Of a stretch of 64,000 nt of DNA, positions 17,983 to 58,413 are shown piece by piece (position 1 is the stretch's first letter; the number at the start of each line of letters is the position of its first letter). The position numbers and the translations under genes are program-made. The notes beneath the pieces are model-generated. The model had not been told where the DNA came from and did no database searches. It was given only the letters and a program-made list of their open reading frames with translations. This DNA is from a virus: IMG/VR virus record IMGVR_UViG_3300048583_000034, positions 1-64,000 of that record; one strand, given 5' to 3'.

Positions 17983-18657
17983 ATGGCACTGAAACTTAAG
18001 TTAGCATATCTGGACCAGAATATTTTTGATGGTATGGAAATTGTTGAAGAGCAGAATAAACTAGGTTCTGGGAACTCTCTGTATATTCAAGGACCATATA
18101 CAGGAGTTGCTAAGAATAAAAACAAAAGAGTTTATCCAAAGGAAGAATTGGATCGTGATATCAATCGCTATATCAACGAGATGGTAAACACCAATCGTGC
18201 TATGGGAGAATTGAACCATAGTCAAACCGCTGAAGTTAATCCAGAACGTGCTTGTCACATGGTCACACAACTCCATGAAGATAACGGGACTTGGTATGGT
18301 AAATCAAAAATTTTATCCGGCGAAGGACTTCCAATTGGAAATCTTGTTAAAGGATTAATCAATCAAGGAGTTTCTTTAGGTGTATCCACAAGAAGCTTAG
18401 GAACATTGGAAGAGTCCACAGACCATAATATTGTAAGGAATCTACATATTGTCGCATGGGACATGGTTGCTGACCCTTCTTTCCCAACAGCTTTCGTAAA
18501 TGGTATATTAGAATCCAGAGAATTCGTTATTGGTGATTCTGGAAAATATGAAGAATCTTACTCTAAATTAGACAATGGCTTATCTTCTTTACCAAAAAAA
18601 GATGTTGAAAGATATCTTCGTGACCAAGTTATACGTTTCATAAACTCTCTTAACTAA
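17983..18657 (+). CDS. gp21: Prohead protease
   Basis: NKNKRVYP, GELNH, LGVSTRSLG and DMVADPS motifs. Confidence 0.93.
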   Translation: MALKLKLAYLDQNIFDGMEIVEEQNKLGSGNSLYIQGPYTGVAKNKNKRVYPKEELDRDINRYINEMVNTNRAMGELNHSQTAEVNPERACHMVTQLHEDNGTWYGKSKILSGEGLPIGNLVKGLINQGVSLGVSTRSLGTLEESTDHNIVRNLHIVAWDMVADPSFPTAFVNGILESREFVIGDSGKYEESYSKLDNGLSSLPKKDVERYLRDQVIRFINSLN

Positions 18658-19064: not shown

Positions 19065-19943
19065 ATGAGCCTTAAAAATCTATTTTCCGAAGAAGTTCAA
19101 AAGATTCTCACCGAAGATTCTTTGAATGCGATTCAAGAAGCAGTTAACTCAAAAGTTGAACTCGCCGTTTCGACTGCCCTTGAAGAGCAAGATACTTTAT
19201 ATGCAGAAAAGCTTGGGACTCTTATCAACACTATCGACAAAGATCATACCAAAAAAATGATCCGTCTTGTCGAAGCGGTGGATAAAAACAACGCTTCCAA
19301 ATTAGTCAAAATCGTTAAGCTATACGAAAGAGCTAATAAGAGCGATGCTAAGAAATTTCAAAAACAAATGCTTCAAACAGTATCCGCTTATCTGGATACT
19401 TTCTTAGAAGAATCCATCAAACCAGAAGATATCGCACAAGCTGTTAAAAATAAGAGTGCTTATAATATTCTATCCAACCTACGCAATGTTTTAGGTGTTG
19501 ATACTGCTCTGATGAATCCTTCCATCAAAGAAGCTGTTCTGGACGCTAAGTCTCAAATCGATACTCTAGCTACTGAGAACACTGAACTGAAAACTAAACT
19601 GGACAAACTTACTGAAGCTTATGAAAAGGTTGAGGTCAAAGCAGTTCTAGAAGAAAAGACTTCCAAGCTTCCTGAAGCTAAGAAAAACTTCATCAAAAAA
19701 GCTCTAGGTGATAAGACAGTTAAGTTTATCAACGAAAACTTCGACTATACCCTTAGACTTTTTGATAGAAACGAAAAGCAAAAGCTTTCAACTTTAAAAG
19801 AAGAAGCTATTAATAACCGCACCGTTAAGCCAGATATTGTTCCCCCACAAAAAGTTGTAGAGGAAAAGGTAAATAATGATAGTGACGGTTCAGAAATGTA
19901 TCTCACAGAGCTTTCCAAAGCTTGGCCAAAAACTAAGCGATAA
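19065..19943 (+). CDS. gp22: Prohead core/scaffold protein
   Basis: Coiled-coil, acidic, VSAYLD; located before the major capsid gene. Confidence 0.8.
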   Translation: MSLKNLFSEEVQKILTEDSLNAIQEAVNSKVELAVSTALEEQDTLYAEKLGTLINTIDKDHTKKMIRLVEAVDKNNASKLVKIVKLYERANKSDAKKFQKQMLQTVSAYLDTFLEESIKPEDIAQAVKNKSAYNILSNLRNVLGVDTALMNPSIKEAVLDAKSQIDTLATENTELKTKLDKLTEAYEKVEVKAVLEEKTSKLPEAKKNFIKKALGDKTVKFINENFDYTLRLFDRNEKQKLSTLKEEAINNRTVKPDIVPPQKVVEEKVNNDSDGSEMYLTELSKAWPKTKR

Positions 19944-20004: not shown

Positions 20005-21465
20005 ATGAACGAAATTCCACAAACTGGTAACGAAAGTAAAATTCAAGGTCTTGTCCGTAAATGGGCAAAAGTTCTGGACTATAGCAGCGACTCGATCCCT
20101 GCTATCCAAAACGAGCACGTTTACAAAACGACTGCGATGCTCTTAGAAAACCAAGAAAAATGGTGTATCGAAGAAGCTGGCAACAACTCTGCTGGTATTT
20201 TTGGCGCAACTGGTAATGCTCAAGCTACGCAAGGCATTGTCAAGGGTGACACTTATGCTCCCGGAGATTCCCGTCTTCCTAAGATTCTCATTCCTATGAT
20301 TCGTCGTACTTTCCCTGAACTTATCTCCAACGAGATTTGCGGTGTTCAACCTATGGGTGGCCCAGTTGGTCTTGCTTTCGCTCTGCGTTATGCATATCAA
20401 TCAACCTTCCTTAATGAAACCGACCACGTTGGACAAGTAGTAGCTGGAACTGGTGGAACTAATCCCGGACTTGGATATACTGGCAATGCTGGTCTTCCCG
20501 GTGCAGGTGAATTAGGCTATCAACTTCTGGACACTCGCTTTACAGGTGTTTCTTCTGCTGCCCTATCAGGTCACGCAGAATGGGCATTTGCACATCAAGA
20601 TTCAGGTGTTGCACAATTACTCGAAAACTACGAGAACACAGGTCGTATTCCACAAATCGAAATGAAGTTTGAAAAGACTTCTGTTGAAGCTGGAACACGT
20701 AGACTTGCTACTCGTTGGTCTATCGAATTGGAACAAGACATCAAAAATATGCAAGGTATCGACATCGATGGCGAGCTTACTAATGCGATGTCCTATGAAA
20801 TCCAAGCCGAAATTGACCGTGAAGTAGTTATGCGTATGATCCAATCCGCGTTTAACGCTGGATATGGTGCTGGTATCTCCATCTGGAGTCCAGTAAGTGC
20901 TGACGGTCGTTGGACTGCTGAACGTAATATCACATTCTATCAACGTCTTATCATCGAGGCTGGTCGTATGGCTGCTCGTAACCGTAGAGGTGCCGCTAAC
21001 TTTGTTATCGCAACTCCTCGCGTTTGCTCTATCCTTGAAATGCTTCCTGACTTCAAAGTATTTGAAATCAATGGAACTGTCTCAACCGCTGGAGTTGGTA
21101 TCGCTAAGGTAGGAACTGTTGGTTCACGTTTCACTGTTTATCGTGACACTCGTACTGAAGTTCAGAACACAACTTATTATCCAAATAGCAACAGCTATAC
21201 TCCTACAAGAGTAAACCCTGTTGAATATGCTCTGATGGGTTACAAAGGTTCTGAATACTATGACACTGGTATTATCTACTGCCCTTATATCCCGATCATG
21301 GTGCAACGTGCCATCGATCCTGTTAACTTCACACCTCGCGTTGGTCTTATGACCCGTTACGGTATCGTTAACAACATCTTTGGAGCAGATCTCTACTACC
21401 ACATCATTGTTGTCAAGGGACTTGGTGTTGCCTTTACCCCCGGCACGGTTAGCACATATTTATAA
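20005..21465 (+). CDS. gp23: Major capsid protein
   Basis: LLENQ, RRTFP, GVQPM.GP.GL.FALR, EIDRE, YCPYIP and TRYG motifs. Confidence 0.97.
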   Translation: MNEIPQTGNESKIQGLVRKWAKVLDYSSDSIPAIQNEHVYKTTAMLLENQEKWCIEEAGNNSAGIFGATGNAQATQGIVKGDTYAPGDSRLPKILIPMIRRTFPELISNEICGVQPMGGPVGLAFALRYAYQSTFLNETDHVGQVVAGTGGTNPGLGYTGNAGLPGAGELGYQLLDTRFTGVSSAALSGHAEWAFAHQDSGVAQLLENYENTGRIPQIEMKFEKTSVEAGTRRLATRWSIELEQDIKNMQGIDIDGELTNAMSYEIQAEIDREVVMRMIQSAFNAGYGAGISIWSPVSADGRWTAERNITFYQRLIIEAGRMAARNRRGAANFVIATPRVCSILEMLPDFKVFEINGTVSTAGVGIAKVGTVGSRFTVYRDTRTEVQNTTYYPNSNSYTPTRVNPVEYALMGYKGSEYYDTGIIYCPYIPIMVQRAIDPVNFTPRVGLMTRYGIVNNIFGADLYYHIIVVKGLGVAFTPGTVSTYL

Positions 21466-29341: not shown

Positions 29342-29680
29342 ATGAGCAAAGATTTGGGTGATATTTATCAAGGAGTTTTCAACGAAAGCTACGGATTAAG
29401 AGTGGACAGAGTCCCTATTAAAGGTGGTCTACAAGCTCCACAGGATGCCAAGAACACGCTATCTCCTGCTGGATCGAAGATCGGTATAGATCCGGGTAAT
29501 CTTTACAACCAGAGCGTTTCTAGTGGCAATAATCCTTATGAACAAGAAGAAGGACAAAGTATTGACAAAGCAGAATTATTCAGTATAATAGATAATCTTT
29601 CCAAAGATTTGGATAATTCAAAGATTACGGACAGAACTGCCCTAATGATTTTAGGTAAACTTAAAAATAGTATTAAATAA
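29342..29680 (+). CDS. Hypothetical late protein
   Basis: TAAATA-N5-ATG start. Confidence 0.6.
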   Translation: MSKDLGDIYQGVFNESYGLRVDRVPIKGGLQAPQDAKNTLSPAGSKIGIDPGNLYNQSVSSGNNPYEQEEGQSIDKAELFSIIDNLSKDLDNSKITDRTALMILGKLKNSIK

Positions 29681-29684
29681 TTTT

Positions 29685-30065
29685 ATGAGAAAGAATTTAA
29701 CCGAAATTTATGAGAAAATGTATGAAAGGGATGATACCAATGCATTTATCTCCAATGAGAGTTTAAAAGAAATGGTTGTCCCTGATCGTTTTGCCCTGAA
29801 TGATTATTCGAAACTAATTTACGAACAATGTAATGATATTTTTAATTATCTGGATGATCAGATAATTTATGAAGGCTCAGGACACGGAGACGAGAAAGCT
29901 GTGAGGAATGCCTTAAAGGATGCGGTGGTTCAAGGACTGGTTACTGTACAAGACACCAAAAATGGATGGATCGTCAAGTCCCTGAAGGATAATTCAATGG
30001 AAACAATCCACAGAGGAGAACGCGCTTTCCATTATCTGCGTAGGTTTTTGCAGAGATTAGCCTGA
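29685..30065 (+). CDS. Hypothetical late protein, possible HicA-like C-terminus
   Basis: TAAATA-N5-ATG; GWIVK...TIH...LRRFL. Confidence 0.45.
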   Translation: MRKNLTEIYEKMYERDDTNAFISNESLKEMVVPDRFALNDYSKLIYEQCNDIFNYLDDQIIYEGSGHGDEKAVRNALKDAVVQGLVTVQDTKNGWIVKSLKDNSMETIHRGERAFHYLRRFLQRLA

Positions 30066-39645: not shown

Positions 39646-39912
39646 ATGACTACTACAAAATTAGAACTTGGCGACTATGTCGAATATAGGGATTACCTCT
39701 TTGAGGTGATGATGGATAAAGAGGGTAAGGGAAGATTGGAATTGGAACATACAAAAGATTGGTATTATGGTGAAAGAATACCGATGAACGAAGTAGACCA
39801 ATCCCAATGTATGGTGGTTAGAGATCATAAAAATTGGAAATGGTCTCCAAAGCAAAAAATGCATGGTTTCGGGTGGTCAATAAATCCAAGATATCAATAT
39901 ATCCCAGCATGA
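39646..39912 (+). CDS. Hypothetical protein
   Basis: ORF track. Confidence 0.55.
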   Translation: MTTTKLELGDYVEYRDYLFEVMMDKEGKGRLELEHTKDWYYGERIPMNEVDQSQCMVVRDHKNWKWSPKQKMHGFGWSINPRYQYIPA

Positions 39913-40451
39913 AGTTCACACAACTCTTAAGAAGTGTTCTCTTAACTGAGAACTCCAAACCAAGATCTTATTCTTGTCTAATGGTAGATTGCACAGACTT
40001 TGAAAAACACTTGAAAGTTATTCAAGATGGAATCGAGAAACAAGATCTATATGATGAAGAAGGATATGGTCTTGAGAAAGAACCACACATCACAGTTCTC
40101 TATGGGATTCATGAACAAGATCCAACAGTTGTAAAACAATCTTTGGATCTTGTTCCGGTTGAGTATGAACTCACTGGACTCTCATTATTTGAAAATGATA
40201 AGTATGATGTCCTCAAATGTTCAGTCAAATCCAAAGATCTAAAAGCTTTGAATAAGCAATGTTGTGAGAACCTAGAGTTCACCAACGATTATCCTGATTA
40301 TATCCCTCACCTAACGGTGGCATATTTGAATCCGGGTGCTGGTAAGAAATATGTTAAGACGAAGTCCGAAGGATTCGGTAAAGAATATAAGTCGGGAAAA
40401 TTCATCTTCTCAAATAAAGATTCGAAGAAAACAAATTGGACTATCTCATAA
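39909..40451 (+). CDS. 2H phosphoesterase (T4 gp57B-like)
   Basis: Two HxT motifs: PHITVLYG and PHLTVAY. Confidence 0.85.
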   Translation: MKFTQLLRSVLLTENSKPRSYSCLMVDCTDFEKHLKVIQDGIEKQDLYDEEGYGLEKEPHITVLYGIHEQDPTVVKQSLDLVPVEYELTGLSLFENDKYDVLKCSVKSKDLKALNKQCCENLEFTNDYPDYIPHLTVAYLNPGAGKKYVKTKSEGFGKEYKSGKFIFSNKDSKKTNWTIS

Positions 40452-47498: not shown

Positions 47499-47525
47499 TC
47501 TCGTCTTTGTGTTATAATTAATCCA

Positions 47526-48631: not shown

Positions 48632-49004
48632 GAAATTCAGAGCTTATTATAAAGGGGATTTTGAAACTCCTGATGGTCCTTTAAAGTTTGAACAAAAGGT
48701 TATCCATGATGAACTTTGGTTTGCATATGATGAAATTCTCAAATACCCTTTTGAATTTCCTTTCTTAGATGATGGTTGGATTATTAATCAATGGACTGGG
48801 TTATCGGACAAACATGGTAAAGAGATCTACGAAGGTGATATCGTTTATAGTCCCAAGATGGATTATAACTTGGTATGTAAGTGGGATGTTCGTGGGTGTT
48901 GGGTTTTTAGATTACATGATGATGATAAAAGCTTCCATCTGTATTCTACAGAGGACACATTCGAAATCGTGGGTAATTTATATGAAAACCCTGAATTAAT
49001 ATAA
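48621..49004 (+). CDS. YopX-family protein
   Basis: QWTGL.DKHGKEIYEGDI and IVGNLYENPEL motifs. Confidence 0.85.
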   Translation: MSPKKFRAYYKGDFETPDGPLKFEQKVIHDELWFAYDEILKYPFEFPFLDDGWIINQWTGLSDKHGKEIYEGDIVYSPKMDYNLVCKWDVRGCWVFRLHDDDKSFHLYSTEDTFEIVGNLYENPELI

Positions 49005-49053
49005 TCGTGCAAAAAGTGCAGAAAAATAATCCTCTAGATTAAATATAGGTGCT

Positions 49054-49605
49054 ATGAATGGACAGATTATAGAAACTCCAAAATCATCAACGATTGATGA
49101 GGCTTGGAAAATGATACCTTCATACGAAGATTATATGATATCCAATTTGGGCAGAGTTAGTTCAAAAAAAGGTAATGCGATTGCTCATACTTTAATGAGT
49201 CCAACCAACATGAATGGCTATAAAAGAATCAAGTTGAGCAAATTTGGGAAAAGTAAAACCTATTTGGTTCATAGATTAGTTCTAATAGCGTTTATAGGGA
49301 TAGATGAAACAAAATCCTTTGCTAATCACAAAAATGGTAATAGGTCAGATAATCGATTAGATAATTTAGAATGGGTAACTGCTAAAGAAAATGTCAAACA
49401 TGGGTTTGATGTGTTGGGCAGGACCATGAATTTCGTTAAACCCGTTACACAATATTTAGAAAATGATAGTTTTGTAAAAGATTGGACATCTATTATGGAA
49501 GCGAGTAAAGGCTTGGGCCTATCTCATTCGTCAATTTCTCAATGTTGCACCCAGAAAAGAAAATCTTGTGGTGGTTATATGTGGAAATATTCAAACCAAA
49601 AATAA
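49054..49605 (+). CDS. NUMOD4-HNH-NUMOD1 homing endonuclease
   Basis: Y.ISNLGRV, VHRLV, NHKNG...DN...NLEWVT..EN and GGY.W.Y motifs. Confidence 0.9.
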   Translation: MNGQIIETPKSSTIDEAWKMIPSYEDYMISNLGRVSSKKGNAIAHTLMSPTNMNGYKRIKLSKFGKSKTYLVHRLVLIAFIGIDETKSFANHKNGNRSDNRLDNLEWVTAKENVKHGFDVLGRTMNFVKPVTQYLENDSFVKDWTSIMEASKGLGLSHSSISQCCTQKRKSCGGYMWKYSNQK

Positions 49606-49607
49606 AT

Positions 49608-49808
49608 ATGAGTATAATTAGAATCGATAAACATAGTGTTCGCTTATGCTGCAACAAGCGAAACTGCCCCGTAGTCACCGATTTGGGTAATGGAATTATT
49701 CAAATAACGGATGATGATGGTAAAACTATCACCATGAAGCAAGAAGAAGCCGAGATTTTATCTGACGGTGCCAAACTTCTAAAAGGGGAAAAATTGATCC
49801 TTGGCTGA
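49608..49808 (+). CDS. Hypothetical protein
   Basis: LCC...CP motif; start trimmed. Confidence 0.55.
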   Translation: MSIIRIDKHSVRLCCNKRNCPVVTDLGNGIIQITDDDGKTITMKQEEAEILSDGAKLLKGEKLILG

Positions 49809-50091
49809 GTTAATCCAACAATCTTTGACGCTAATAGGCTGTTGCTTTATTATAAAGTATGGAAGTATATTAGAACCAATTAAAACCAATTTATACAAAA
49901 TCCACAAACTAAAAGAATTATTAACATGCTCACTTTGCTTAGGTTTTTGGATAGGTATCATCTTTGGATTGCTATGGACTGGTTTAACTATACATGTGTT
50001 GGAATCAGCATTTTATTCTTCATGCATATGTTGGCTAGCTGATCATCTGCTGATGGTCATGCAAAGGTATATTTACGGAGAGGATAGTTAA
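49801..50091 (+). CDS. DUF1360-like membrane protein
   Basis: LLTCSLCLGFW motif plus TM segments. Confidence 0.6.
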   Translation: MAELIQQSLTLIGCCFIIKYGSILEPIKTNLYKIHKLKELLTCSLCLGFWIGIIFGLLWTGLTIHVLESAFYSSCICWLADHLLMVMQRYIYGEDS

Positions 50092-50099
50092 ATATTTGA

Positions 50100-52472
50100 A
50101 TGAAGTTTAATCAAATAGTCGAAAGGCTAAATCCTTTCCTACTACATGAAAGGTATTATAATTATACCTTCCCAGAAAAAAAGTCATTACAGATGTATGA
50201 CTTCTATGTTTTGGATTATTTGAGATATCTGGTGGAGAATATGTCTCCAAAAAATTTTCGAGACCTTCCTATGGATTTGGAAGATAGTGTTAAGGACTCG
50301 GTGAATAAATTGTTCCCTGCCCTGAGACAGGAATTGTTGAACGCAGTATTCTATGCCGTGTGTGCTGAGATGCGACATTCAGATGGTTCCAATGGTGGAA
50401 ATAAATCACATAGGCAATTGTTCACTGGTGGAACAAAAGATGCCAAGATTTATAATGCATATTTGAAATATATGCTATACCATAAGGCCAATGATAACGA
50501 CAAGAAAGAGTTGGTTGATATCCATGGTGCGGAGAAGCCTAGAACTAGAGCACAGATCCCTTCGACCGAAGTTGATAATGATGAATTGAGAAATACTTCT
50601 TATAAGGCAGCTAGATATGCCATTAAGAAAACTGGTTTATCTGAGAAAGATTTCATGGAGATGTGTCTAAAGATCTTCACTGAAGGTGGATGGTCTCAAT
50701 CCTATGGTGGAAACGCTTGGGGATCAATTGCAAAGGGGTGGCTTATGCTTAATGATGCTGACCAAATCAATCCACCACCAGCAAGAAAAGGTTCAGAGGA
50801 TCGTGCCAAGAAGCCTATGAGTGTGGCTATTGACCACGTTTATGATTTACAACACAATACTGATACTGTCTTCAATAAACTCAAGAGTTATTATGGAGAT
50901 AGTGGATATGCTTGGATTGGTAACGTCCTAGACCACAAAGCAAATACTCATAGTTATTTTGATTTACTTAGCCATTGCTCTAGCATGGTTAAGAATATGG
51001 CACAGCCTATATTATATAATCGTCTAGGTTCTACTTGGGAGAATGATATCAAAAATACCTCCCCAGAAGATGATATAGACTTAGGGCAATACAATAAAAA
51101 GGCGATGTATTATATCGAAGAACCGATCAATGGTAAATTTGTTATATGCACACACCCATTGGCATCTGCTGGCTTCACAAGAGATAAAATTTATAAAGTC
51201 CTCAACTATAAGGATGGTTCTCTTCTTCTTAGAAATGATGAGAAAAAGATTAAAAAAGTTTCAACTGGATATTTCAATCTTTTAGTTAAAAAAGGCGATG
51301 AGGTGGAACAAATTGCTCTCGAAGAGCCTACACCTCAAAATACGAGTAGTAATATTCCTAACACAGATGTTCACAAATCTAAGTATTATAGCGATGTTGT
51401 GACTGGGGACAAGTTGAGAGTTGTCGATGCAGATGGATCGGGAATATTTGGAGATGGTGATATTATCACATATATTAAAGACACATATGATACCCACGAT
51501 GATAAAAAAATGATTGATATCATCGTAGATAAAAACGGTAAGAAATCTTCTGGGTGGAGGAGTAAAAGATTCGAACCTATTAAAAAAACAATAGAAAAAA
51601 CTCATAAATTCAAAAAAGGAGACATGGCTAAGTGTATCGATGACTCTGGTTGGGCTGAAGGTGTCCTAACCAAAGGAAAATTATATGAAGTTTTACATTA
51701 TTCCATAGATGGAGAATCTGAGGAATTTAATACGATTGGATTTGTAGACGACAATGGTGACAAAATTTCTGCATATGTCAAAAGATTTGAACCACCAAAG
51801 GAAAACACGGGATCATTTGAAGAAACCTCGGAATCAGGAACCTTTAAAGTGGGTGACAAGGTAAAATTAAAATATGGTGAATCATACCCCGGCTTAACAC
51901 CGGGTAAAGTATATACTATTACCACCCTACCTGTTTCTAATGATCCAAAAAAATTAACTGCGGTTATTGATAACGATGATGATGTTAATGTTATATTTAT
52001 TTCTAGGTTAGAACCAGTAGATGTCTCTCAGAAAAATAAACCGGGATTTTTCGAGATTGGTTCCAAAGTTAAATTAAAGAGCAACGAACATTACCCAAAC
52101 GTTACAAGTGGTAAAGTTTATACGGTCGTAAGACCTAAGTTCATCTCAAGTGATAAATATATTATAACTTATATAACTGGAGATAATGGGGGAGTTATAG
52201 GGTTGTATAACACTAGGCTTCAACAAGTTAGGGATAGACCATCACAAATTGACGCCATAGCCAAGACAGAAGAAATGACCCAACCAAAACTTAAAATTGG
52301 TGATCGTGTGTCATATACTGGAGCTGATGGCAAAACACATACCGGAAAAATTTCACAGGCTAACTCATGGAGTGCCTTGGTTAATTGGGATGATGGGGTG
52401 GTAACACATTCAGTGCCTTTAAATACTCTAACCAAAATAGACTCTTCCAAATTTAGAGACATAAAGATATGA
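50100..52472 (+). CDS. Large late protein: YGG..W/DL.HNT domain plus tandem SH3-like repeats
   Basis: N-domain paralogous to 55362..56126; about six FKVGDKV...LT.GK.Y repeats. Confidence 0.6.
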   Translation: MKFNQIVERLNPFLLHERYYNYTFPEKKSLQMYDFYVLDYLRYLVENMSPKNFRDLPMDLEDSVKDSVNKLFPALRQELLNAVFYAVCAEMRHSDGSNGGNKSHRQLFTGGTKDAKIYNAYLKYMLYHKANDNDKKELVDIHGAEKPRTRAQIPSTEVDNDELRNTSYKAARYAIKKTGLSEKDFMEMCLKIFTEGGWSQSYGGNAWGSIAKGWLMLNDADQINPPPARKGSEDRAKKPMSVAIDHVYDLQHNTDTVFNKLKSYYGDSGYAWIGNVLDHKANTHSYFDLLSHCSSMVKNMAQPILYNRLGSTWENDIKNTSPEDDIDLGQYNKKAMYYIEEPINGKFVICTHPLASAGFTRDKIYKVLNYKDGSLLLRNDEKKIKKVSTGYFNLLVKKGDEVEQIALEEPTPQNTSSNIPNTDVHKSKYYSDVVTGDKLRVVDADGSGIFGDGDIITYIKDTYDTHDDKKMIDIIVDKNGKKSSGWRSKRFEPIKKTIEKTHKFKKGDMAKCIDDSGWAEGVLTKGKLYEVLHYSIDGESEEFNTIGFVDDNGDKISAYVKRFEPPKENTGSFEETSESGTFKVGDKVKLKYGESYPGLTPGKVYTITTLPVSNDPKKLTAVIDNDDDVNVIFISRLEPVDVSQKNKPGFFEIGSKVKLKSNEHYPNVTSGKVYTVVRPKFISSDKYIITYITGDNGGVIGLYNTRLQQVRDRPSQIDAIAKTEEMTQPKLKIGDRVSYTGADGKTHTGKISQANSWSALVNWDDGVVTHSVPLNTLTKIDSSKFRDIKI

Positions 52473-52686
52473 CAACTAGAGTCAATTGGAACGATCCATA
52501 CGATGTTCTAATCTGTCACCCATCTATGTTGACTTTCTTGAAAACCATGATATCTTTGAGAAGTTAAATGAATTATGATAACATAAAAATTCTCCCCGTT
52601 CCAAAATTAGAAGGGGAGAATTTAAATAGATGGCTCAAAAGAGAATCAGCAAGATATGGAATTGAACATCTTAAAGATGGTAGGTT

Positions 52687-54210
52687 TTACCTTAAGAGAT
52701 TCTTCAACATCTGAGAATAAGCTTCTTGGAACGGTCCAGAAAGAATCAACCCAGCAATCTCTTTCATCCTTTGCTCATCTGGATCTTCTCCAGCGTTCAA
52801 CGTCTCTAGAACATATTCGTTTAGAGCGTCAGTTATTGAGCGAAAGTGTGTCTTATCCTTTTGCAAGACCGGAAACCAAGTCATAAGTTTAGCCCCATCG
52901 AAATATTGCTTTAACTTAAGTCTCGTTTCGTCTCTGGTTCCACCAATACGTTGAACCTTCTCTTCTGCTCTAGCAATCTTAGCGTTGAATTCATCAGCGT
53001 TAAAATGTGCTGGTCCTCTGGAAGCTTCGTCGCAATATCCAACAGCTTTCACAACTTCCCATGCTGGGTCGTTAATAAGAGCAGTCAGAGTCTTGATGTT
53101 AAGTTTATCCAGATTATGAATAAGCATATGCTTCTCCACAGCAAATAGAATATGTTTCTTATCTTGGGGAGAGAGTTCCGAGAACTTTAACGTCCTGAAG
53201 ATCCTATCCACGATAGGAACACCTGCTCCATCATGACCGTGATAGTTCGAGAAGCCATTATCCTTACGTCCTCTCGTAGTCGCTTTACCAAAGTCATGGA
53301 AAAGAACGGCAAGGTTTATAACGGGATCAGTATATGGGGACACTTTCAAACATTCATAGATATGTCCCAGCACTTGAGCATCACCTTCTGGATGATGTTG
53401 GGGATCATGATCGAATCCTTCCATAGCAGTAAACTCGGGAAGAATGTCGTGTAGAATGCCCGTCTCTTGTAACTTGTGTAGAAAGTTCGCCAGAGTCTTA
53501 CCAGACTTCGCAGACTTATAAAACTCTTTGGAAATGCTTTCCTTGGAAATCGCCTCTGGATTAGATAACAAACTCTTTAGTTCGATAGCAGCTTGTTTGG
53601 TTCCTTCTTCAATATCGAAGCCCATCTTAGCAGCAAATCTAAAGACACGTAGAATTCTAGTGGCATCTTCCTGAAATCTCTTTTTTGGATCACCCACAGC
53701 ACGCACCAGAGAGTTTTTCAAGTCCTCCAGACCACCCTGAAAGTCCACGATCTGTCCAGACGCATCCAGACCAAAGGAATTGATCGTAAGGTCTCTACGC
53801 GCAGTGTCAGCTTCAAAGGAATCCGTCTCAGTGGAGACGTTGTTCTGTCTCCCGATGTCTCCCGAATCCGTTCTGAATTTCGCAAGGTCATACCAATAGT
53901 TTCCCCACTTAATTGTAAACACAGGTTGTAAATCATCCTTAGAGATATTTCTCATCTCATAAAGTTCTGATAACTTCTCCAGAGGAATATTGGTGGCCAT
54001 ATCCACATCATCAATTTCATTCCCCATAAGAAGATCTCTAGGAACCCCACCAACAATATAAATATCACCCTTTAGTTTTGACTTGATATTCTTCATTAAA
54101 TCAAGAGCAACTCTCAATTCTTCAGAAGATTCCACAGCTTTTATCCACTTGGCATCAAAGTCATCACCATACTTCTCTAGAAGCATATAGCGCAGTTTGT
54201 CGAATTTCAT
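52687..54210 (-). CDS. cca: CCA-adding enzyme (class II nucleotidyltransferase) with HD domain
   Basis: VGGVPRD, DVD, RRDLTIN, EDATRILR, HHPEG and LFHDFGK motifs. Confidence 0.88.
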   Translation of the reverse strand: MKFDKLRYMLLEKYGDDFDAKWIKAVESSEELRVALDLMKNIKSKLKGDIYIVGGVPRDLLMGNEIDDVDMATNIPLEKLSELYEMRNISKDDLQPVFTIKWGNYWYDLAKFRTDSGDIGRQNNVSTETDSFEADTARRDLTINSFGLDASGQIVDFQGGLEDLKNSLVRAVGDPKKRFQEDATRILRVFRFAAKMGFDIEEGTKQAAIELKSLLSNPEAISKESISKEFYKSAKSGKTLANFLHKLQETGILHDILPEFTAMEGFDHDPQHHPEGDAQVLGHIYECLKVSPYTDPVINLAVLFHDFGKATTRGRKDNGFSNYHGHDGAGVPIVDRIFRTLKFSELSPQDKKHILFAVEKHMLIHNLDKLNIKTLTALINDPAWEVVKAVGYCDEASRGPAHFNADEFNAKIARAEEKVQRIGGTRDETRLKLKQYFDGAKLMTWFPVLQKDKTHFRSITDALNEYVLETLNAGEDPDEQRMKEIAGLILSGPFQEAYSQMLKNLLR

Positions 54211-54237
54211 ATTTGTATTTAAACGATAACCTAGTGT

Positions 54238-55104
54238 TTAAAAGGGTAAATCGTCCTCAGTATCGGGTTCGGTTGGGACTGGTGCCTTCGGTGTTGGCTT
54301 CTTCAGTCTCTTCTTTTTAGGTAACTCACCACCTCTTAAAGTTTTCGGTTGGACATAATCTGGGCTTTCATCATCAAAATAACCTGCTTCCTGTCTGACA
54401 TATTCATCATGATCTCTATAAGCATTAAACTCATAACCTTCCCATACAGGATCTATAAGAACATACTCACCATTAGCACGTTTCATGACATTACCAGCGT
54501 GCCAATCAGGAACACCGCCCCAATTTTCAGACTTCATTACCTTTTCTAGCATATCTTGTCCAACTAAAACATTGTATATTTCTCTGGGGAGGGCATCAAC
54601 TTCTGATTTAAGATCTTCCATAACTGCCTTGGAATCGTTCTCATAAAATCTTATAAGTTGATCTGGATTGTTTTTATAAAAAGTGTATCTATAAACAACC
54701 CCTCTGCCTGCATCTATATCATTAAATTCTCCCTCTTCCAAGGGTTCCAGTTTTTCTATACGAGACACATACATCTCCTTATCATATTCTTCCCTAGCAT
54801 AAAAAGGGACTATTCTTTTAGGTGTCCCATAAAATTTGGGGAAAGGAGGATAAGGATTCTTATAAGCAAAACGAACAAATCTCAAATATGGATCATCCTT
54901 TGTAAATGTCTTGATAACATATGGCCATTTTGGATGAGAATATACGGTCCCATACTTACCAGCACCGATCTGCTTACCACCAGAAGCTTCAAACTCTTTC
55001 ATGAGATCCCACCACCTCTTATCCCTATGTTCCGGGTTCAAAAGAAAGTCCGACACCGTATCAAAGGATTCGTTGATGTGGAAGAAGGAAGTAAATGAGA
55101 TCAT
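54238..55104 (-). CDS. Ser/Thr protein kinase-like (T7 gp0.7-type)
   Basis: IGAGKYGTVY, VIK, DWHAGNVM and LIDPV motifs. Confidence 0.78.
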   Translation of the reverse strand: MISFTSFFHINESFDTVSDFLLNPEHRDKRWWDLMKEFEASGGKQIGAGKYGTVYSHPKWPYVIKTFTKDDPYLRFVRFAYKNPYPPFPKFYGTPKRIVPFYAREEYDKEMYVSRIEKLEPLEEGEFNDIDAGRGVVYRYTFYKNNPDQLIRFYENDSKAVMEDLKSEVDALPREIYNVLVGQDMLEKVMKSENWGGVPDWHAGNVMKRANGEYVLIDPVWEGYEFNAYRDHDEYVRQEAGYFDDESPDYVQPKTLRGGELPKKKRLKKPTPKAPVPTEPDTEDDLPF

Positions 55105-55156
55105 GCCCTAATATTTAAGGATTTGACTTCTTAAAACACTAGGGTATACTATATAC

Positions 55157-55357
55157 ATGATGGAGAGTGACGTTATCAAAATACGTGTGGATGGTCAAGT
55201 ATATCATCACAATTTGGCAGAGTTTTTTAGACAAGTGGCAAACGATATAGAGTTTCGACAAAAACAAGGTTGGGATGGCAAACACCACTCACAACAAGTT
55301 ATGTGTGGAAAACATCTTACGCATTGGTCAATTGAAAAGAAAGATTACGCTAAATAA
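55157..55357 (+). CDS. Hypothetical protein
   Basis: Follows promoter TTGACT-N3-TAAAACACTAG-N2-TATACT. Confidence 0.6.
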   Translation: MMESDVIKIRVDGQVYHHNLAEFFRQVANDIEFRQKQGWDGKHHSQQVMCGKHLTHWSIEKKDYAK

Positions 55358-55361
55358 TTTA

Positions 55362-56126
55362 ATGCTGTCTTTTAATCAATTCTACGAAAAATTTGAACGC
55401 GGAGAACTTCTACCAATTAATAGAAGACGCAAGATTTTAATTGAAGCACTATATGTTTATCCTTCCTCTGGAGACAAAGCTATCATGGATGTATATGCAT
55501 TGTATGCTCTCTGGTGGGAACTCGGTGGTGGCAAGTCATCTTATGGATACGCAGAAACTTCCATAAGAAACGAGAGAGTAAGAGAAAAAGTAGACAGAGC
55601 ATTCGAAGAAGCCTTGACCGTAATCTCAAACAAACTCCTACAGGAAACAAAAGAAGCCATCGCAGACGAAGCAGAGAACATATTTGACGAACACTTAATA
55701 CCCTCAAAAGATGTAGTCCTCTGGTTTAAACAAAACAACCTTTTACCAAAATTAAAGAAAGCCTACAATAATGGAGCAGGTGGCGTTTGGTTTGATACGT
55801 TCTCCTATGACGAAACTATACAGATCTTAGCAGCACCGTTCTGGGAAGAACATGCAAACTTATATGGTGGTAAGAAATGGTCCTCCATAACGGAAGTCAC
55901 CAAACAACTCGATAACGCCATTCGAAGAGAAAACGTTCAGAGTCTATTAAGCACCTTTGACAAGTTCATGGATCTGGAACATAACACAGGATCTCTCTAT
56001 TCCAAATTGAACCAAATGAAAGTCTCCAAAGAAACTCTAGACCTAAGAGCAGGTTTCCAATCAGTAAAGGATTTCCTCCCCTACGTCTCCGACCAAGTTA
56101 AAAAATTCATAGGATTAATGCGATGA
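55362..56126 (+). CDS. Late protein, YGG..W/DLEHNTG family
   Basis: TAAATA-N5-ATG; paralog of the 50100 N-domain. Confidence 0.6.
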   Translation: MLSFNQFYEKFERGELLPINRRRKILIEALYVYPSSGDKAIMDVYALYALWWELGGGKSSYGYAETSIRNERVREKVDRAFEEALTVISNKLLQETKEAIADEAENIFDEHLIPSKDVVLWFKQNNLLPKLKKAYNNGAGGVWFDTFSYDETIQILAAPFWEEHANLYGGKKWSSITEVTKQLDNAIRRENVQSLLSTFDKFMDLEHNTGSLYSKLNQMKVSKETLDLRAGFQSVKDFLPYVSDQVKKFIGLMR

Positions 56127-56401
56127 AACCAGTGAATTATAATGAACTCTCCCGAGAACAAAGGCGAGAAGTTCGTATACAATATATTGAGGATCAAAAA
56201 GGTTTGTGTGCTCATTGCAAGGGATCTCTAAGAGAATCACCACCTAGGGAAATATCAAGTAAGTATATTAATAAAAACCTGTTCCCCGCAAACTTCTTTA
56301 ATTGGCCCGTGCATCTCCACCACGATCACGATACAGGCATGACCATAGGAGCAGTTCACGCAAAATGTAATGCGGTTCTCTGGCAATATCATGGAGAGTG
56401 A
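56123..56401 (+). CDS. Endonuclease VII-like protein
   Basis: QKGLCAHC and LHHDHDTG...G..H..CN motifs. Confidence 0.7.
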   Translation: MKPVNYNELSREQRREVRIQYIEDQKGLCAHCKGSLRESPPREISSKYINKNLFPANFFNWPVHLHHDHDTGMTIGAVHAKCNAVLWQYHGE

Positions 56402-56530
56402 TAAAACCCGAAGTATTTCATAAAACACTAGATTAGGATGTGGTCGCAACAATTTCGGGAAAAATCCTGTGATCATTTTCATAATTTTATTAAAAAATTT
56501 TTTCTATGGCCTCCCCAAATTTCAATTTCT

Positions 56531-56597
56531 ATCTGATATCTATCTGCTATTCCTAACACGGGGTGTTCACATGAACACTATCAGATAGATATCAGAT
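56531..56597. repeat. 16-bp perfect inverted repeat with an internal palindrome
   Basis: ATCTGATATCTATCTG / CAGATAGATATCAGAT; inner GTGTTCA-CA-TGAACAC. Confidence 0.85.
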
Positions 56598-56602
56598 GCG
56601 AC

Positions 56603-56645
56603 AAAAAAAGCCCTAGCAAGAACCAATGATGGAACTTGCTAGGGC
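56603..56645 (-). terminator. Intrinsic terminator ending the leftward units
   Basis: GCCCTAGCAAG/CTTGCTAGGGC plus T7. Confidence 0.85.
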
Positions 56646-56839
56646 AAACACAACCAACCAAAAAAGGTTAGGAAATTTCACAGGGTTTTTCAGGTTGACC
56701 CTCAACCGTTGGCGATGGTTCCCTTTCCATCATGAGGACTGCGCCCAGTAGCTAACTGGCACGCCTAACTCATGACCCTCTCCGCACTCACGGGAGGCAC
56801 CCCACCGGGTGGATGAAAGGGGTTAGGGTTAAAAAGTGA

Positions 56840-56971
56840 TTAGCACCCGCAGCAGGGGGCATCCTCGCACCCGCAGGGTGCATCATTAGGACTGTCCATC
56901 CCATCCTCCCAGAGGGAAAGGGCGAGAGCAAAGAAGGCGAGCTTGGCTTGGCGAGATGTGGTGATTCTCAT
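56840..56971 (-). CDS. 43-aa Cys-rich peptide (not in ORF track)
   Basis: Ends DAPCGCEDAPCCGC; starts 6 nt after the -10 element. Confidence 0.65.
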   Translation of the reverse strand: MRITTSRQAKLAFFALALSLWEDGMDSPNDAPCGCEDAPCCGC

Positions 56972-56998
56972 AAGTGGATTCTATTCTAGTGTTTAATC

Positions 56999-57223
56999 TC
57001 AGACGTTTCGCCATCCATAAGTGCGGACAGCGTAATCACCAGAGGGAAGCTTGCGGATGCTGGACACACCTTGCGAGACATGCCCGCAACAGTCATGCTC
57101 ACAGTGGCAGCGATAGCGCATGTGAGATTGAATCTCATTCTCATCCGCAGCGCGGACGATGGAGATGGAACGAACGGACTCACCCGTTTCATCCCATCTA
57201 TCTTTACCTTTAATGATTTCCAT
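56999..57223 (-). CDS. Small Cys/His-rich protein
   Basis: CHCEHDCCGH motif; has its own promoter. Confidence 0.65.
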   Translation of the reverse strand: MEIIKGKDRWDETGESVRSISIVRAADENEIQSHMRYRCHCEHDCCGHVSQGVSSIRKLPSGDYAVRTYGWRNV

Positions 57224-57255
57224 GTGAGTGAATTCTATTCTAGTGTTTAACCTCT

Positions 57256-57338
57256 CCCGGTGGGTGCCTCGTCACGATCCCCGCGATTACTGGCGTATAG
57301 GATTAAAGAGGAATGGGTGAACTGTCGCACCCACCGGG
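57256..57338 (-). ncRNA. Putative small RNA
   Basis: Own promoter, no ORF, 12-bp CCCGGTGGGTGC/GCACCCACCGGG stem. Confidence 0.6.
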
Positions 57339-57418
57339 TCTAGGCTTATTCTGTCCTAGTGTTTAACTCGTTGCACTCTCTGGCCTATCCTCAGAAGCTC
57401 CAAGGATAGGCTAGAAAG

Positions 57419-57456
57419 CCCTTGGCCTAGCCCGTGAGAGGGGACTAGGCCAAGGG
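57419..57456 (-). terminator. Hairpin downstream of the 168-aa gene
   Basis: CCCTTGGCCTAG/CTAGGCCAAGGG. Confidence 0.65.
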
Positions 57457-57468
57457 GATTTAGATCGA

Positions 57469-57975
57469 TCAGGCACCCGCTGGGGCGGTCTCTTCAGCCT
57501 TTGGGGCAGCTTCACCGCGAGCGGCAAGCGCATTGTCGATCATCTTTTGAATGCTTTCGTCGGAGAGCTTCAATTGCGCCCCCACCTTGCGGAGGGATTT
57601 GATGATGGACTCGGTCGAGTTTGGGTCGGTCGCGGTGGCGGAATAATCGCGCTCTTTGATCTTGCTCCATTCGACTTCGAAGAGGTCAACCGTTTCGAAT
57701 TTCGGATTTCCATCTTCATCCATGGCTTGCAATTCGATTCCGTCAACCGTTTCCATGACTTCGACAACCTTGAAACGGCGGTCGGTGGCGACGGTGTGAA
57801 GGACTTCGAGAATTTCCTTTTCCGTCATGGCGACAGGTTCGGCATTCTTGACAGCGGCAGGGCGGGAGAACTCGTTGCGGAGTTCAGTAAGATCACCCTT
57901 GATTTTCTCGGAAACTCCGAAGGTGAATTGCTTTGGCTTGGCGGTAGTGGCGACTGGCGTGGTGGTGTTGGACAT
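57469..57975 (-). CDS. Hypothetical putative early protein with GC-rich codons
   Basis: ORF track; starts 6 nt after CAGAAT. Confidence 0.75.
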   Translation of the reverse strand: MSNTTTPVATTAKPKQFTFGVSEKIKGDLTELRNEFSRPAAVKNAEPVAMTEKEILEVLHTVATDRRFKVVEVMETVDGIELQAMDEDGNPKFETVDLFEVEWSKIKERDYSATATDPNSTESIIKSLRKVGAQLKLSDESIQKMIDNALAARGEAAPKAEETAPAGA

Positions 57976-58209: not shown

Positions 58210-58223
58210 CCACCCATTCTGTC

Positions 58224-58388: not shown

Positions 58389-58413
58389 CGTGCTTCAATC
58401 CTATCCTAGTGTT

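What the first reader, a model, noticed from the sequence alone, without database searches (positions are those of the whole stretch)
50100..56126. CCA enzyme, kinase and a paralog pair carry capsid-targeting-like N-termini
Seen N-termini: MKFDKLRYMLLE (CCA enzyme), MISFTSFFHINE (kinase), MLSFNQFYE (55362) and MKFNQIVE (50100), each behind TAAATA. MKFTQLLRSVLLTE (2H phosphoesterase, 39909) is similar but lacks an adjacent TAAATA. Established: T4 internal proteins use an MKTYQEFIAE-type leader that gp21 cleaves after Glu, and they are injected with the DNA. Inference: tRNA-end-maintenance and kinase activities may be packaged and delivered before phage gene expression, pre-empting tRNA-damaging defences.
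Basis: inference. Interest (0 to 1): 0.7.

Follow-up and report, generated by a model that had tools for sequence, protein, structure and literature searches.

The report
Head-loading tags on phage enzymes
In this uncultured T4-like phage, a tRNA CCA-adding enzyme, a kinase and several unrelated late proteins start with a short peptide much like the tag phage T4 uses to load proteins into its head, so they are probably packed into the particle and delivered with the DNA, though no one has measured this.

Summary
All four N-termini sit 5-7 nt behind TAAATA, and the 2H enzyme lacks the box.

TAAATA is not special to these genes. It precedes 33 of 172 ORFs on the contig, including portal, protease and scaffold.

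The phage is a distant T4 relative. It has a gp20 portal, a gp21-type S77 protease and a gp23 capsid protein.

The leaders resemble T4's tested capsid-targeting sequence: an aromatic residue at position 3 or 4, a hydrophobic one three residues on, then L/I-x-Glu. Four lines of evidence support this:
- Orthologs keep the pattern. Glu is present in 29 of 29 kinase relatives, with L/I at P3 in 22.
- The pattern marks 13 of 97 late-box protein families against 11 of 565 others.
- Most CCA-enzyme homologs lack the extension: 87 of 150.
- Other metagenomic CCA enzymes begin almost like T4 IPI to IPIII.

Packaging, cleavage and injection remain unmeasured. The counter-defence reading is speculative: 17 of 24 phage tRNA genes lack an encoded CCA, which gives an ordinary reason for the enzyme. 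The "paralog pair" shares only one ~100-residue domain.

This scan has noted similar leader-tagged cargo on other phage DNA (AI notes, unchecked). Verdict: a new variant of a known kind.

The parts
50089..50094 (+). TAAATA late-type box, 5 nt before the ORF790 start
50100..52472 (+). ORF790. Leader MKFNQIVE|RLNPFLLHE| (codons 50100-50150), a ~330-aa conserved N-domain, then SH3/KOW-like repeats.
   Evidence: 93 homologs with variable C-termini. 45 of 93 start with the aromatic pattern and 44 of those also have hydrophobic-x-Glu.
52687..54210 (-). Class II tRNA nucleotidyltransferase (CCA-type) with an HD region. Leader is residues 1-12 (54175-54210); the N-terminal extension runs to about residue 30-48.
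   Evidence: Pfam PolyA_pol 50-170, E 4.4e-23. phrog_2244 E 4.2e-60. PDB 1miv aligns from query residue 35. NCBIfam PRK10885 aligns from residue 50. Ortholog leaders.
54216..54221 (-). TAAATA box of the CCA gene, 5 nt before the ATG
54231..54239 (-). Early-type AAACACTAG box plus TATCGT hexamer just upstream of the CCA late box. The kinase stop codon lies just upstream of this box.
   Evidence: The box type was noted in earlier finding e1-5967515.
54238..55104 (-). Protein-kinase-like enzyme. Leader is residues 1-12 (55069-55104). The C-terminus ends in an acidic LPF tip.
   Evidence: phrog_15752 E 2.8e-11. Alignment A2 invariants G47/G49, K65, D200, N205, D218. Leader statistics.
55112..55117 (-). 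TAAATA box of the kinase gene, 7 nt before the ATG
55351..55356 (+). TAAATA box of ORF254, 5 nt before the ATG
55362..56126 (+). ORF254, function unknown. Leader MLSFNQFYE| (55362-55388). It shares the 'YGG..W ... D..DLxHNT' domain with ORF790.
39909..40451 (+). 2H phosphoesterase (LigT/Acb1-like) with leader MKFTQLLRSVLLTE|. No late box; translationally coupled to the upstream gene.
   Evidence: Pfam 2_5_RNA_ligase2 E 2.2e-10 and Acb1 E 1.8e-7. The ortholog starts MKFEQLIKRIFLFE|.
17983..18657 (+). gp21-type prohead serine protease, the presumed enzyme that removes the leaders
   Evidence: Peptidase_S77 E 1.2e-27. PDB 5jbl (T4 gp21) E 4.4e-19.
19065..19943 (+). Scaffold-position protein (gp22 slot). 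Its N-terminus MSLKNLFSE| is followed by many hydrophobic-x-Glu sites.
   Evidence: T4 gp22 starts MLKEQLIAE.
20005..21465 (+). gp23-type major capsid protein. Predicted maturation cut after Glu57 (WCIEE|AGNN, codon 20173-20175).
   Evidence: Pfam Gp23 E 3.5e-84. Alignment with T4 gp23 and three relatives. Coordinates.
29342..30065 (+). Two small late-box genes (112 and 126 aa) with a second leader type, MSKDLGDIYQGVFNE| and MRKNLTEIYEKMYE|, which resembles the T4 Alt and gp24 leaders
   Evidence: The same leader type heads part of the ORF790 family.

Best explanation
The 8-17-residue N-termini are capsid-targeting propeptides of the T4 kind. The proposed sequence of events is:
1. The genes are read late from TAAATA boxes, the core of a gp55-type late promoter.
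2. The leader docks the new protein on the scaffolding core of the prohead. The docking features are an aromatic residue at position 3 or 4 and a hydrophobic residue three positions later.
3. The gp21-type serine protease cuts after the Glu of a hydrophobic-x-Glu site.
4. The mature enzyme stays in the head and enters the next cell with the DNA.

The locus 50100-56126 is a variable cargo locus, the counterpart of the T-even internal-protein loci.

For the CCA-type enzyme, the most likely benefit is finished 3' ends on the phage's own tRNAs from the first minutes of infection. Repair of damaged tRNA ends is a secondary possibility.

Shown: sequence features, their conservation, their enrichment, the presence of the protease, and the extension status of the CCA leader. 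Inferred: late transcription, docking, cleavage, retention and injection.
For: 1. T4-type head module: Portal_T4 E 4.2e-89, Peptidase_S77 E 1.2e-27, Gp23 E 3.5e-84. The protease aligns to T4 gp21 (5jbl, E 4.4e-19) and keeps His in ELNH and Ser in GVST.

2. T4's own leaders, read from NC_000866: IPII/IPIII MKTYQEFIAE, IPI MKTFKEF...ITE, gp24 MAKINELLRE, Alt MELITELFDE, gp22 MLKEQLIAE. The review PMC9026906 (passages) gives gp21 motif L/I-X-E, residues 4 and 7 for targeting, and 8 and 10 for processing.

3. Kinase family (30 sequences, 38-75% identical):
- 29 of 29 with an N-terminus have Glu at the aligned P1.
- P3 is L in 15 and I in 7.
- P1' is S, A or G in 25.
- Leader length varies from 8 to 17 residues.

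4. CCA orthologs are 62-75% identical but carry different leaders of the same pattern (MKFDKLRYMLLE, MIRFHKLYRQLMRE, MERFHKLYHRLMRE, MIPFKKFFFE), each followed by conserved DDFxxKW.

5. Enrichment:
- ^M..[FY]..[FY] is found in 14 of 162 late-box proteins, 13 of 788 others (Fisher 2.7e-5) and 23 of 2535 internal Met windows.
- By protein family: 13 of 97 late against 11 of 565 others (4.2e-6).

6. Extension status of the CCA leader:
- 1miv aligns from query residue 35.
- PRK10885 aligns from query residue 50.
- The phiM12 CCA gene starts 3 codons before the residue aligned to query 51.
- Of the best 150 cluster representatives, 87 have no extension, 35 have one, 16 carry the domain internally and 12 are fragments.

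7. Other metagenomic CCA enzymes start MKTFKQYFTE|A, MKTFKEHFTE|A and MQTFKQFFE|A. In alignment A3, F4 is invariant and E10 is at least 90% conserved.

8. The same locus in relatives holds other leader-bearing late genes, including a NUDIX hydrolase.

9. gp55 homologs occur in 3 of 3 relatives' contigs (E 1e-10 to 3e-16).

10. The predicted capsid-protein cut WC[IY][EQ]E|[AS] is conserved in 4 of 4 genomes.
Against: - There is no proteomic, structural or expression evidence. The phage is uncultured.
- The pattern is not fully specific. The gp15-like tail protein (9295-10473) matches it, and T4 gp15 itself starts with an aromatic run. Eleven non-late families also match.
- ORF254 family: only 15 of 21 have Glu at the aligned site (3 K, 1 Q, 1 R, 1 S), and P3 is Phe rather than L/I.
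- The minimal [LI]-x-E motif alone is weakly discriminating: 48 of 162 late, 127 of 788 other, 373 of 2535 internal windows.
- The CCA gene also has an early-type promoter box, and the 2H gene has only early-type signals.
- The mature proteins are acidic or near neutral and weigh 21-90 kDa. That is unlike T4's small internal proteins, though Alt is a 682-residue packaged enzyme.
- Co-occurrence with the S77 protease is underpowered:
  - Of 8 IMG/VR records with a clearly leader-bearing CCA gene, 2 have S77. Those two are the only ones at least 85% complete.
  - The other 6 are 49-78% complete and also lack Gp23.
  - Of 10 records with a leaderless CCA gene, 4 have S77.
Confidence: 0.6

Rival explanations
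1. The enzymes act only in the cytoplasm. The conserved N-terminal peptide has another role, such as an N-terminal helix needed for folding or partner binding, or a tag read by the phage's ClpP-like protease (26022-26666). It is not a capsid address.
For: - The CCA gene has an early-type promoter box.
- 17 of 24 tRNA genes need CCA addition, so a cytoplasmic job is enough.
- The 2H gene is in an early-type context.
- A ClpP-family gene with a late box is present (Pfam CLP_protease E 4.6e-29).
- In the kinase and ORF790 families the leader is followed without a break by highly conserved residues, so it could be read as part of the domain.
Against: - The same pattern heads at least a dozen unrelated families and is enriched in late-box genes.
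- Leader length varies while the aromatic pair and the L/I-x-Glu are kept.
- CCA orthologs swap leaders yet keep the pattern.
- Most CCA homologs work without the extension: 87 of 150.
- The features kept are those T4 genetics assigned to targeting and cutting.
Confidence: 0.22
2. The shared N-termini are a by-product of nucleotide constraints on leaderless late mRNAs, for example A/U-rich first codons after a TAAATA box. They are not a protein signal.
For: - The box sits 5 nt before the start in 25 of 33 cases, which leaves no room for a Shine-Dalgarno site.
- Lys, Phe, Asn and Ile codons are A/U-rich.
Against: - Most late-box genes lack the pattern: 28 of 32 in this contig, including portal, protease and neck genes.
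- Substitutions keep amino-acid class (F/Y/W, L/I), not bases.
- The conserved Glu lies at a variable distance, 8-17 residues in.
- Leader-bearing CCA homologs from other phage lineages have ordinary purine-rich upstream regions and no TAAATA box.
Confidence: 0.08
3. The proteins are packaged as proposed, and the purpose is counter-defence. Injected CCA-repair, kinase and phosphoesterase activities would neutralise tRNA-end-damaging or signalling defences before any phage gene is expressed.
For: - The CCA enzyme matches the multifunctional CCA addition/repair profile over residues 50-381 (E 1.6e-39) and has an HD/HDIG region.
- The 2H enzyme also hits the Acb1 anti-CBASS family (E 1.8e-7).
- In relative G002 a leader-bearing NUDIX hydrolase sits beside the CCA gene.
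- T4 Ip1-3 are injected inhibitors of restriction enzymes (PMC12373910, passages).
Against: - No defence target is identified.
- All NCBIfam matches are below their curated cut-offs.
- The tRNA-maturation need is a simpler reason.
- The 2H gene lacks the late box.
Confidence: 0.15

Closest known systems
Phage T4 capsid targeting sequence (CTS) on internal proteins IPI, IPII, IPIII and on Alt, removed by prohead protease gp21
   Same: - A short N-terminal leader with an aromatic residue at position 4 and a hydrophobic or aromatic one at 7, ending in L/I-x-Glu.
- Mature parts that are unrelated to one another.
- Late-promoter-like box upstream.
- Variable loci.
- A gp21-type protease, a gp23 capsid protein and a gp20 portal in the same genome.
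   Different: - The lineage is very distant: about 27% capsid-protein identity to T4.
- The cargo includes large acidic enzymes (CCA-type nucleotidyltransferase, kinase-like protein, NUDIX in a relative) rather than small inhibitors.
- Leaders vary in length from 8 to 17 residues. Some are shifted by one residue, and one family uses Phe at P3.
- None of it has been tested experimentally.
Long N-terminal propeptides of ejection proteins in giant phages (phiKZ, 201phi2-1, SPN3US), cut by gp21-related proteases
   Same: Head cargo is processed after Glu at a short motif by a diverged gp21 homolog, and paralogs can share conserved N-termini (PMC5694885, passages).
   Different: Those propeptides are mostly over 100 residues long with an A/S/G-x-E motif. 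Here the leaders are T4-sized with L/I/F at P3.
Polyvalent proteins of phages and conjugative elements (Iyer et al. 2017, PMC5512222)
   Same: - They are predicted delivery of kinase, nucleotidyltransferase and other enzyme domains with the incoming DNA (passages).
- Relatives of this CCA domain lie inside proteins of 1683-2355 residues (P0180, P0181, P0182, P0215).
- The ORF790 N-domain is fused to many different C-terminal domains.
   Different: Here each enzyme is a separate gene with its own leader and promoter box. 'CCA' occurs 0 times in that paper's main text.

Membership tests
T4-type capsid-targeted, protease-processed head cargo | The phage encodes a gp21-type (Peptidase S77) prohead protease with its catalytic His and Ser. 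| tested here: met
   17983-18657: PF03420 E 1.2e-27; 5jbl E 4.4e-19, with ELNH and GVST retained.
T4-type capsid-targeted, protease-processed head cargo | A 10-20-residue N-terminal leader whose residues 4 and 7 carry the targeting information (aromatic or hydrophobic in T4). | tested here: met
   The kinase and ORF254 have F4 and F7. The CCA enzyme, ORF790 and 2H have F3 and L/I6, the same spacing shifted by one.
T4-type capsid-targeted, protease-processed head cargo | The leader ends in the gp21 motif L/I-x-Glu. | tested here: inconclusive
   Met for the kinase (INE; 29 of 29 Glu, 22 of 29 L/I at P3), CCA (LLE), ORF790 (IVE8, LHE17) and 2H (LTE). Not strictly met for ORF254 (FYE; Glu in 15 of 21).
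T4-type capsid-targeted, protease-processed head cargo | Otherwise unrelated proteins share only the leader. | tested here: met
   13 late-box families match after clustering on residues 26 to the end. One of the 13 is a likely false positive, the gp15-like tail protein.
T4-type capsid-targeted, protease-processed head cargo | Late expression. | tested here: inconclusive
   The TAAATA box is present at four genes and at the structural genes. gp55 homologs occur in relatives. There are no transcript data, and the 2H gene lacks the box.
T4-type capsid-targeted, protease-processed head cargo | The protein is present in virions with the leader removed, and is injected. | not testable with these tools
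   The phage is uncultured and no proteome is available.
Class II tRNA nucleotidyltransferase (CCA-adding enzyme) | Pol-beta head domain with neck and RNA-binding region. | tested here: met
   PF01743 E 4.4e-23 and PF12627 E 6.7e-5; 1miv E 1.1e-27.
Class II tRNA nucleotidyltransferase (CCA-adding enzyme) | CCA specificity rather than A-adding or poly(A) activity. | tested here: inconclusive
   The best NCBIfam hits are CCA equivalogs, but all fall below their cut-offs (150 bits against 290; 136 against 451). PcnB also scores E 2.3e-34.
Protein-kinase-like fold | Gly-rich loop, catalytic Lys, D-x4-N loop and a metal-binding Asp. | tested here: met
   In A2, G47/G49, K65, N205 and D218 are invariant or nearly so, and D200 is at least 90% conserved. 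phrog_15752 E 2.8e-11. Pfam, NCBIfam and PDB give no hit, so the substrate is unknown.
2H phosphoesterase | Two H-x-T/S motifs. | tested here: met
   HITV and HLTV are in the sequence. PF13563 E 2.2e-10.

The most novel reading that the evidence does not exclude
A portable head-loading code (Met, an aromatic residue at position 3 or 4, a hydrophobic residue three on, then L/I-x-Glu) is shared across the phage supergroup that uses gp21-type proteases. It would mark a large, fast-changing injected enzyme set. That set would include CCA-adding or repair enzymes, a kinase whose C-terminus imitates the bacterial SSB tail, NUDIX and 2H hydrolases, and the ORF790 module family. The code would work like a secretion signal, so injected proteomes of uncultured phages could be read from sequence alone.
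Probability: 0.35. Interest if true: 0.8.

Novelty: new variant of a known kind. Interest (0 to 1): 0.62.

Why it matters
T4's capsid-targeting sequence has been used to find internal-protein genes only in close T-even relatives (PMC12373910, passages). Known cargo there is small inhibitors plus the Alt enzyme.

If the tag holds in a lineage this distant, and on enzymes that work on tRNA ends and on proteins, two things follow. Phages would deliver ready-made RNA-repair and signalling enzymes with their DNA. And the cargo of uncultured phages could be predicted from sequence.

My searches found no paper that places a CCA-adding enzyme in a virion and none that describes CTS-type leaders outside T-evens and giant phages. 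Virion proteome tables usually sit in supplements, which I did not see.

Tried and rejected
Led nowhere:
- Megablast of the locus against phage records gave no match.
- The ESM Atlas gave no usable hit for ORF254; its own model has pLDDT 0.37.
- A profile of the ORF254 family against PDB gave nothing below E 0.029.
- The kinase against PDB gave nothing meaningful.
- Pfam gave nothing for two kinase relatives whose search listing carries PF27024.
- Most leader-bearing proteins of relatives have no Pfam or PHROG family. In each library, only 2 of 10 (Pfam) or 3 of 10 (PHROGs) had any hit.
- The search for related loci with P0171 found no relative.
- Rfam found nothing in 49000-58500.
- The GC-rich stretch 56600-57480 had no blastn match.

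Considered and rejected:
- Chance resemblance: rejected.
- ORF115 at 5566 (MTFNALNYLLYE) as cargo: its orthologs replace the Glu with Asp, so I left it out.
- The gp15-like protein as cargo: I treat it as a false positive.
- Full-length paralogy of ORF790 and ORF254: rejected.
- The S77 co-occurrence test is too small to decide anything. I had grouped L085 and L105 with the leader-bearing records before reading their N-termini, and now count them as ambiguous.

Rows dropped before counting:
- ORFs under 45 aa were dropped.
- P0041 (N-terminally truncated) was dropped from the kinase leader count.
- P0035 and P0033 were dropped from the ORF254 count.

Full report
WHAT THE WINDOW IS

The window is the first 64 kb of a 99,180-base virus contig. 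It carries 24 tRNA genes and a T4-type head module:
- Portal_T4, 10479-12338, E 4.2e-89.
- A head-closure protein.
- Peptidase_S77, the gp21 family, 17983-18657, E 1.2e-27.
- A 292-residue protein in the scaffold position.
- A Gp23-family capsid protein, 20005-21465, E 3.5e-84.

The protease aligns to the solved T4 gp21 (5jbl, E 4.4e-19) and keeps the His and Ser positions. The best capsid-protein matches among 50,697 phage records are about 33% identical, and identity to T4 gp23 is about 27%. This is therefore a far relative of T4.

Relatives exist only as metagenomic contigs. I fetched G001 (122 kb), G002 (124 kb, the closest) and G004 (207 kb, with terminal repeats, rated complete). By that measure the window's own contig is about half a genome.

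THE OBSERVATION

The box is a general start signal:
- 33 of 172 called ORFs on the contig have TAAATA 3-8 nt before the start codon. The spacer is exactly 5 nt in 25 of them.
- Only 38 of all 4063 ATGs on the contig have the box.
- It precedes the portal, protease, scaffold, neck and several homing-endonuclease genes.
- It is the core of T4's late promoter TATAAATA (recalled). Homologs of the T4 late sigma factor gp55 are present in 3 of 3 relatives' contigs (E 1e-10 to 3e-16), though not on the window's incomplete contig.

So 'behind TAAATA' means 'probably late'. That fits a virion protein but is not specific to these genes.

WHAT T4 DOES

From the T4 record:
- IPII and IPIII start MKTYQEFIAE.
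- IPI starts MKTFKEF and reaches ITE at residue 19.
- gp24 starts MAKINELLRE.
- Alt starts MELITELFDE.
- gp22 starts MLKEQLIAE.

The review PMC9026906 (passages read) states that:
- gp21 cuts after Glu at L/I-X-E.
- The first 10 residues of IPIII suffice for head loading.
- Residues 4 and 7 matter for targeting, and residues 8 and 10 for processing.

PMC12373910 (passages) states that Ip1-3 share nothing but the N-terminal leader, and that ip genes in T-even phages were found by that leader.

THE LEADERS BEHAVE LIKE THAT SIGNAL

Kinase family. In 30 relatives (38-75% identical) the leader is M-x-x-F-x-x-[FYW]-[FLY] ... E, followed by a near-invariant [SA]FDTVSDFLLNPEHR.
- All 29 sequences that have an N-terminus carry Glu at the aligned position.
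- P3 is L (15), I (7), W (3), or M, F, V, Y (1 each).
- P1' is S (12), A (10) or G (3).
- Leader length runs from 8 to 17 residues.

CCA enzyme. The four orthologs (62-75% identical) carry different leaders with the same plan, each followed by conserved DDFxxKW.

ORF254. Closer relatives read M..F..F[YF]E.

ORF790. It has 93 homologs in large phage contigs. 45 begin with the aromatic pattern, and 44 of those also have hydrophobic-x-Glu. Many of the others begin with a second leader type, for example MRSKDTLVLEKLYSKIITE. That second type also heads two small late genes in the window (29342-30065) and resembles the T4 Alt and gp24 leaders.

2H enzyme. Its one ortholog keeps the plan: MKFEQLIKRIFLFE.

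IS IT MORE THAN CHANCE?

I called ORFs the same way in four genomes, giving 950 proteins of at least 45 aa.

| Pattern | Late-box | Other | Fisher p | Internal Met windows |
|---|---|---|---|---|
| ^M..[FY]..[FY] (T4-derived) | 14 of 162 proteins | 13 of 788 proteins | 2.7e-5 | 23 of 2535 |
| Looser pattern plus hydrophobic-x-Glu ending at residues 7-20 | 23 of 162 proteins | 20 of 788 proteins | 2.3e-8 | 40 of 2535 |
| Looser pattern, by family (clustered on residues 26 to the end) | 13 of 97 families | 11 of 565 families | 4.2e-6 | n/a |
| [LI]-x-E alone | 48 of 162 proteins | 127 of 788 proteins | 8.5e-5 | 373 of 2535 |

In the window's own contig the looser pattern marks 4 of 32 late-box ORFs, 0 of 39 early-box ORFs and 4 of 100 others. 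The bare [LI]-x-E motif discriminates only weakly.

One of the 13 late families is the gp15-like tail protein. T4 gp15 also starts with an aromatic run (MFGYFYNS), so the pattern gives false positives.

IS THE LEADER AN EXTENSION?

For the CCA enzyme, yes:
- Solved CCA enzymes align from query residue 29-35 onward.
- The E. coli-type profile aligns from residue 50.
- The PHROG profile aligns from residue 49.
- The CCA gene of phiM12, another T4-superfamily phage, starts three codons before the residue aligned to query 51.

Among the best 150 representatives from a search of 1.84 billion proteins:
- 87 have no extension.
- 35 have one. Of these, 11 match my leader regex. About ten more are visibly leader-like but miss the regex on a detail.
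- 16 carry the domain inside a longer protein.
- 12 are fragments.

Several of the extended ones begin almost as T4's internal proteins do: MKTFKQYFTE|A, MKTFKEHFTE|A, MQTFKQFFE|A. In an alignment of 12 of them, F4 is invariant and E10 is at least 90% conserved.

A further clade in IMG/VR contigs starts M[KR]F..Y[LI].E|A and has ordinary purine-rich upstream regions. This speaks against a nucleotide-level cause tied to TAAATA starts.

For the kinase I could only show that the leader lies upstream of the Gly-rich loop.

THE LOCUS

The small membrane-protein gene at 49801-50091 has relatives in 10 of the fetched loci. What follows it differs between relatives:
- The window has ORF790, CCA, kinase and ORF254.
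- G002 has a 574-residue protein, a leader-bearing NUDIX hydrolase, CCA and ORF254.
- G003 has seven leader-bearing genes in about 9 kb.

This is the layout described for T-even internal-protein loci.

THE PROTEASE'S OTHER SUBSTRATES

- The capsid protein has a conserved WC[IY][EQ]E|[AS] just after the LLENQE motif it shares with T4 gp23, in 4 of 4 genomes.
- The scaffold-position protein starts MSLKNLFSE and is rich in hydrophobic-x-Glu sites.
- The 744-residue protein at 13839 starts MKLFGDE, and MRLFSE in relatives.

WHAT WEAKENS THE CASE

- Nothing physical has been measured.
- ORF254 relatives lack the Glu in 6 of 21 cases, and P3 is Phe.
- The CCA gene has an early-type AAACACTAG box at 54231-54239, directly before its late box. 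The enzyme is therefore probably made early as well.
- The 2H gene is translationally coupled in an early-type operon.
- My co-occurrence test was too small:
  - Of 8 IMG/VR records with a clearly leader-bearing CCA gene, only 2 have an S77 protease. Those two are the only ones at least 85% complete.
  - The other six (49-78% complete) lack Gp23 too.
  - Two further records with ambiguous N-termini have S77.
  - Of 10 records with leaderless CCA genes, 4 have S77.
- The 595-kb record LR756511.1, which holds an ORF790 relative, also has an S77 protease. This fits the picture but is a single case.

FUNCTION

- The CCA-type enzyme has the head, neck and HD regions. Its specificity cannot be settled because all curated profiles score below their cut-offs.
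- Only 7 of 24 tRNA genes in the window encode CCA. The enzyme has an obvious job in maturing phage tRNAs. Loading it into the head would let that start at once.
- The kinase-like protein has all the catalytic residues, but its substrate is unknown.

COMPARISON AND NOVELTY

The closest known system is the T4 CTS with gp21. Giant-phage propeptides (PMC5694885) and polyvalent proteins (PMC5512222) are the next nearest.

I file the finding as a new variant of a known kind: the same mechanism is inferred, in a distant lineage and with enzyme cargo.

My literature searches found no report of a CCA-adding enzyme in a virion and no report of CTS-type leaders outside T-evens and giant phages. Supplements were not seen.

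Earlier notes of this scan describe similar leader-tagged cargo on other phage DNA. They are unchecked AI notes and I do not count them as evidence.

VERDICT

- Observation: confirmed.
- Interpretation: partly supported.
- Confidence that these leaders are head-loading, protease-cut propeptides: 0.6.
- Interest: 0.62.

Noticed in passing
window 54241-54267 (- strand), the last residues of the kinase: 27 of 30 kinase relatives end in an acidic run followed by x-P-F (window: EDDLPF), preceded by a Lys-rich stretch (26 match the regex, plus P0052 by eye). This looks like the C-terminal tip of bacterial SSB (acidic residues then I-P-F; recalled, not tested). It could be a docking mimic for SSB-binding proteins.
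   Followed up: partly
window 29342-29680 and 29685-30065: Two small acidic late-box proteins carry a second leader type (..L..IY..E). It resembles the T4 Alt and gp24 leaders and also heads part of the ORF790 family.
   Followed up: partly
window 54216-54239 (- strand): The CCA gene has an early-type AAACACTAG box plus hexamer immediately followed by the late TAAATA box. The kinase stop codon lies just upstream of the early box.
   Followed up: partly
window 56700-57470: About 770 bases at 46-59% G+C in a 37% G+C genome, with no ORF over 79 aa. There is no Rfam hit, no blastn match in phage records and no counterpart in three relatives.
   Followed up: partly
window 31513-39146: Only 7 of 24 tRNA genes encode a 3' CCA.
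   Followed up: yes
window 50100-51100 (ORF790 N-domain); proteins P0067-P0159: The ~330-residue N-domain recurs in 93 proteins from large phage contigs. It is fused to different C-termini whose precomputed Pfam accessions vary from protein to protein. The accessions were not looked up; from memory they include PDZ-, KOW- and ankyrin-type domains. P0159 carries PF03496 (from memory, an ADP-ribosyltransferase toxin domain).
   Followed up: partly
proteins P0180, P0181, P0182, P0215: Relatives of the CCA-type domain sit inside proteins of 1683-2355 residues, near the C-terminal end in P0180, P0181 and P0215 and mid-protein in P0182. These are possibly polyvalent delivered proteins.
   Followed up: no
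L039:9005-9841 (G002 47005-47841): A NUDIX hydrolase (PF00293 E 1.4e-9) with leader MITFKKYFTLLQE and a late box lies next to the CCA ortholog.
   Followed up: partly
window 26022-26666 (- strand): A ClpP-family protease gene behind a late box (PF00574 E 4.6e-29).
   Followed up: no
window 9295-10473: The gp15-like tail sheath stabilizer (phrog_227 E 4.4e-13) has an aromatic N-terminus that matches the leader regex in relatives. T4 gp15 is similar, so this is a likely false positive.
   Followed up: yes
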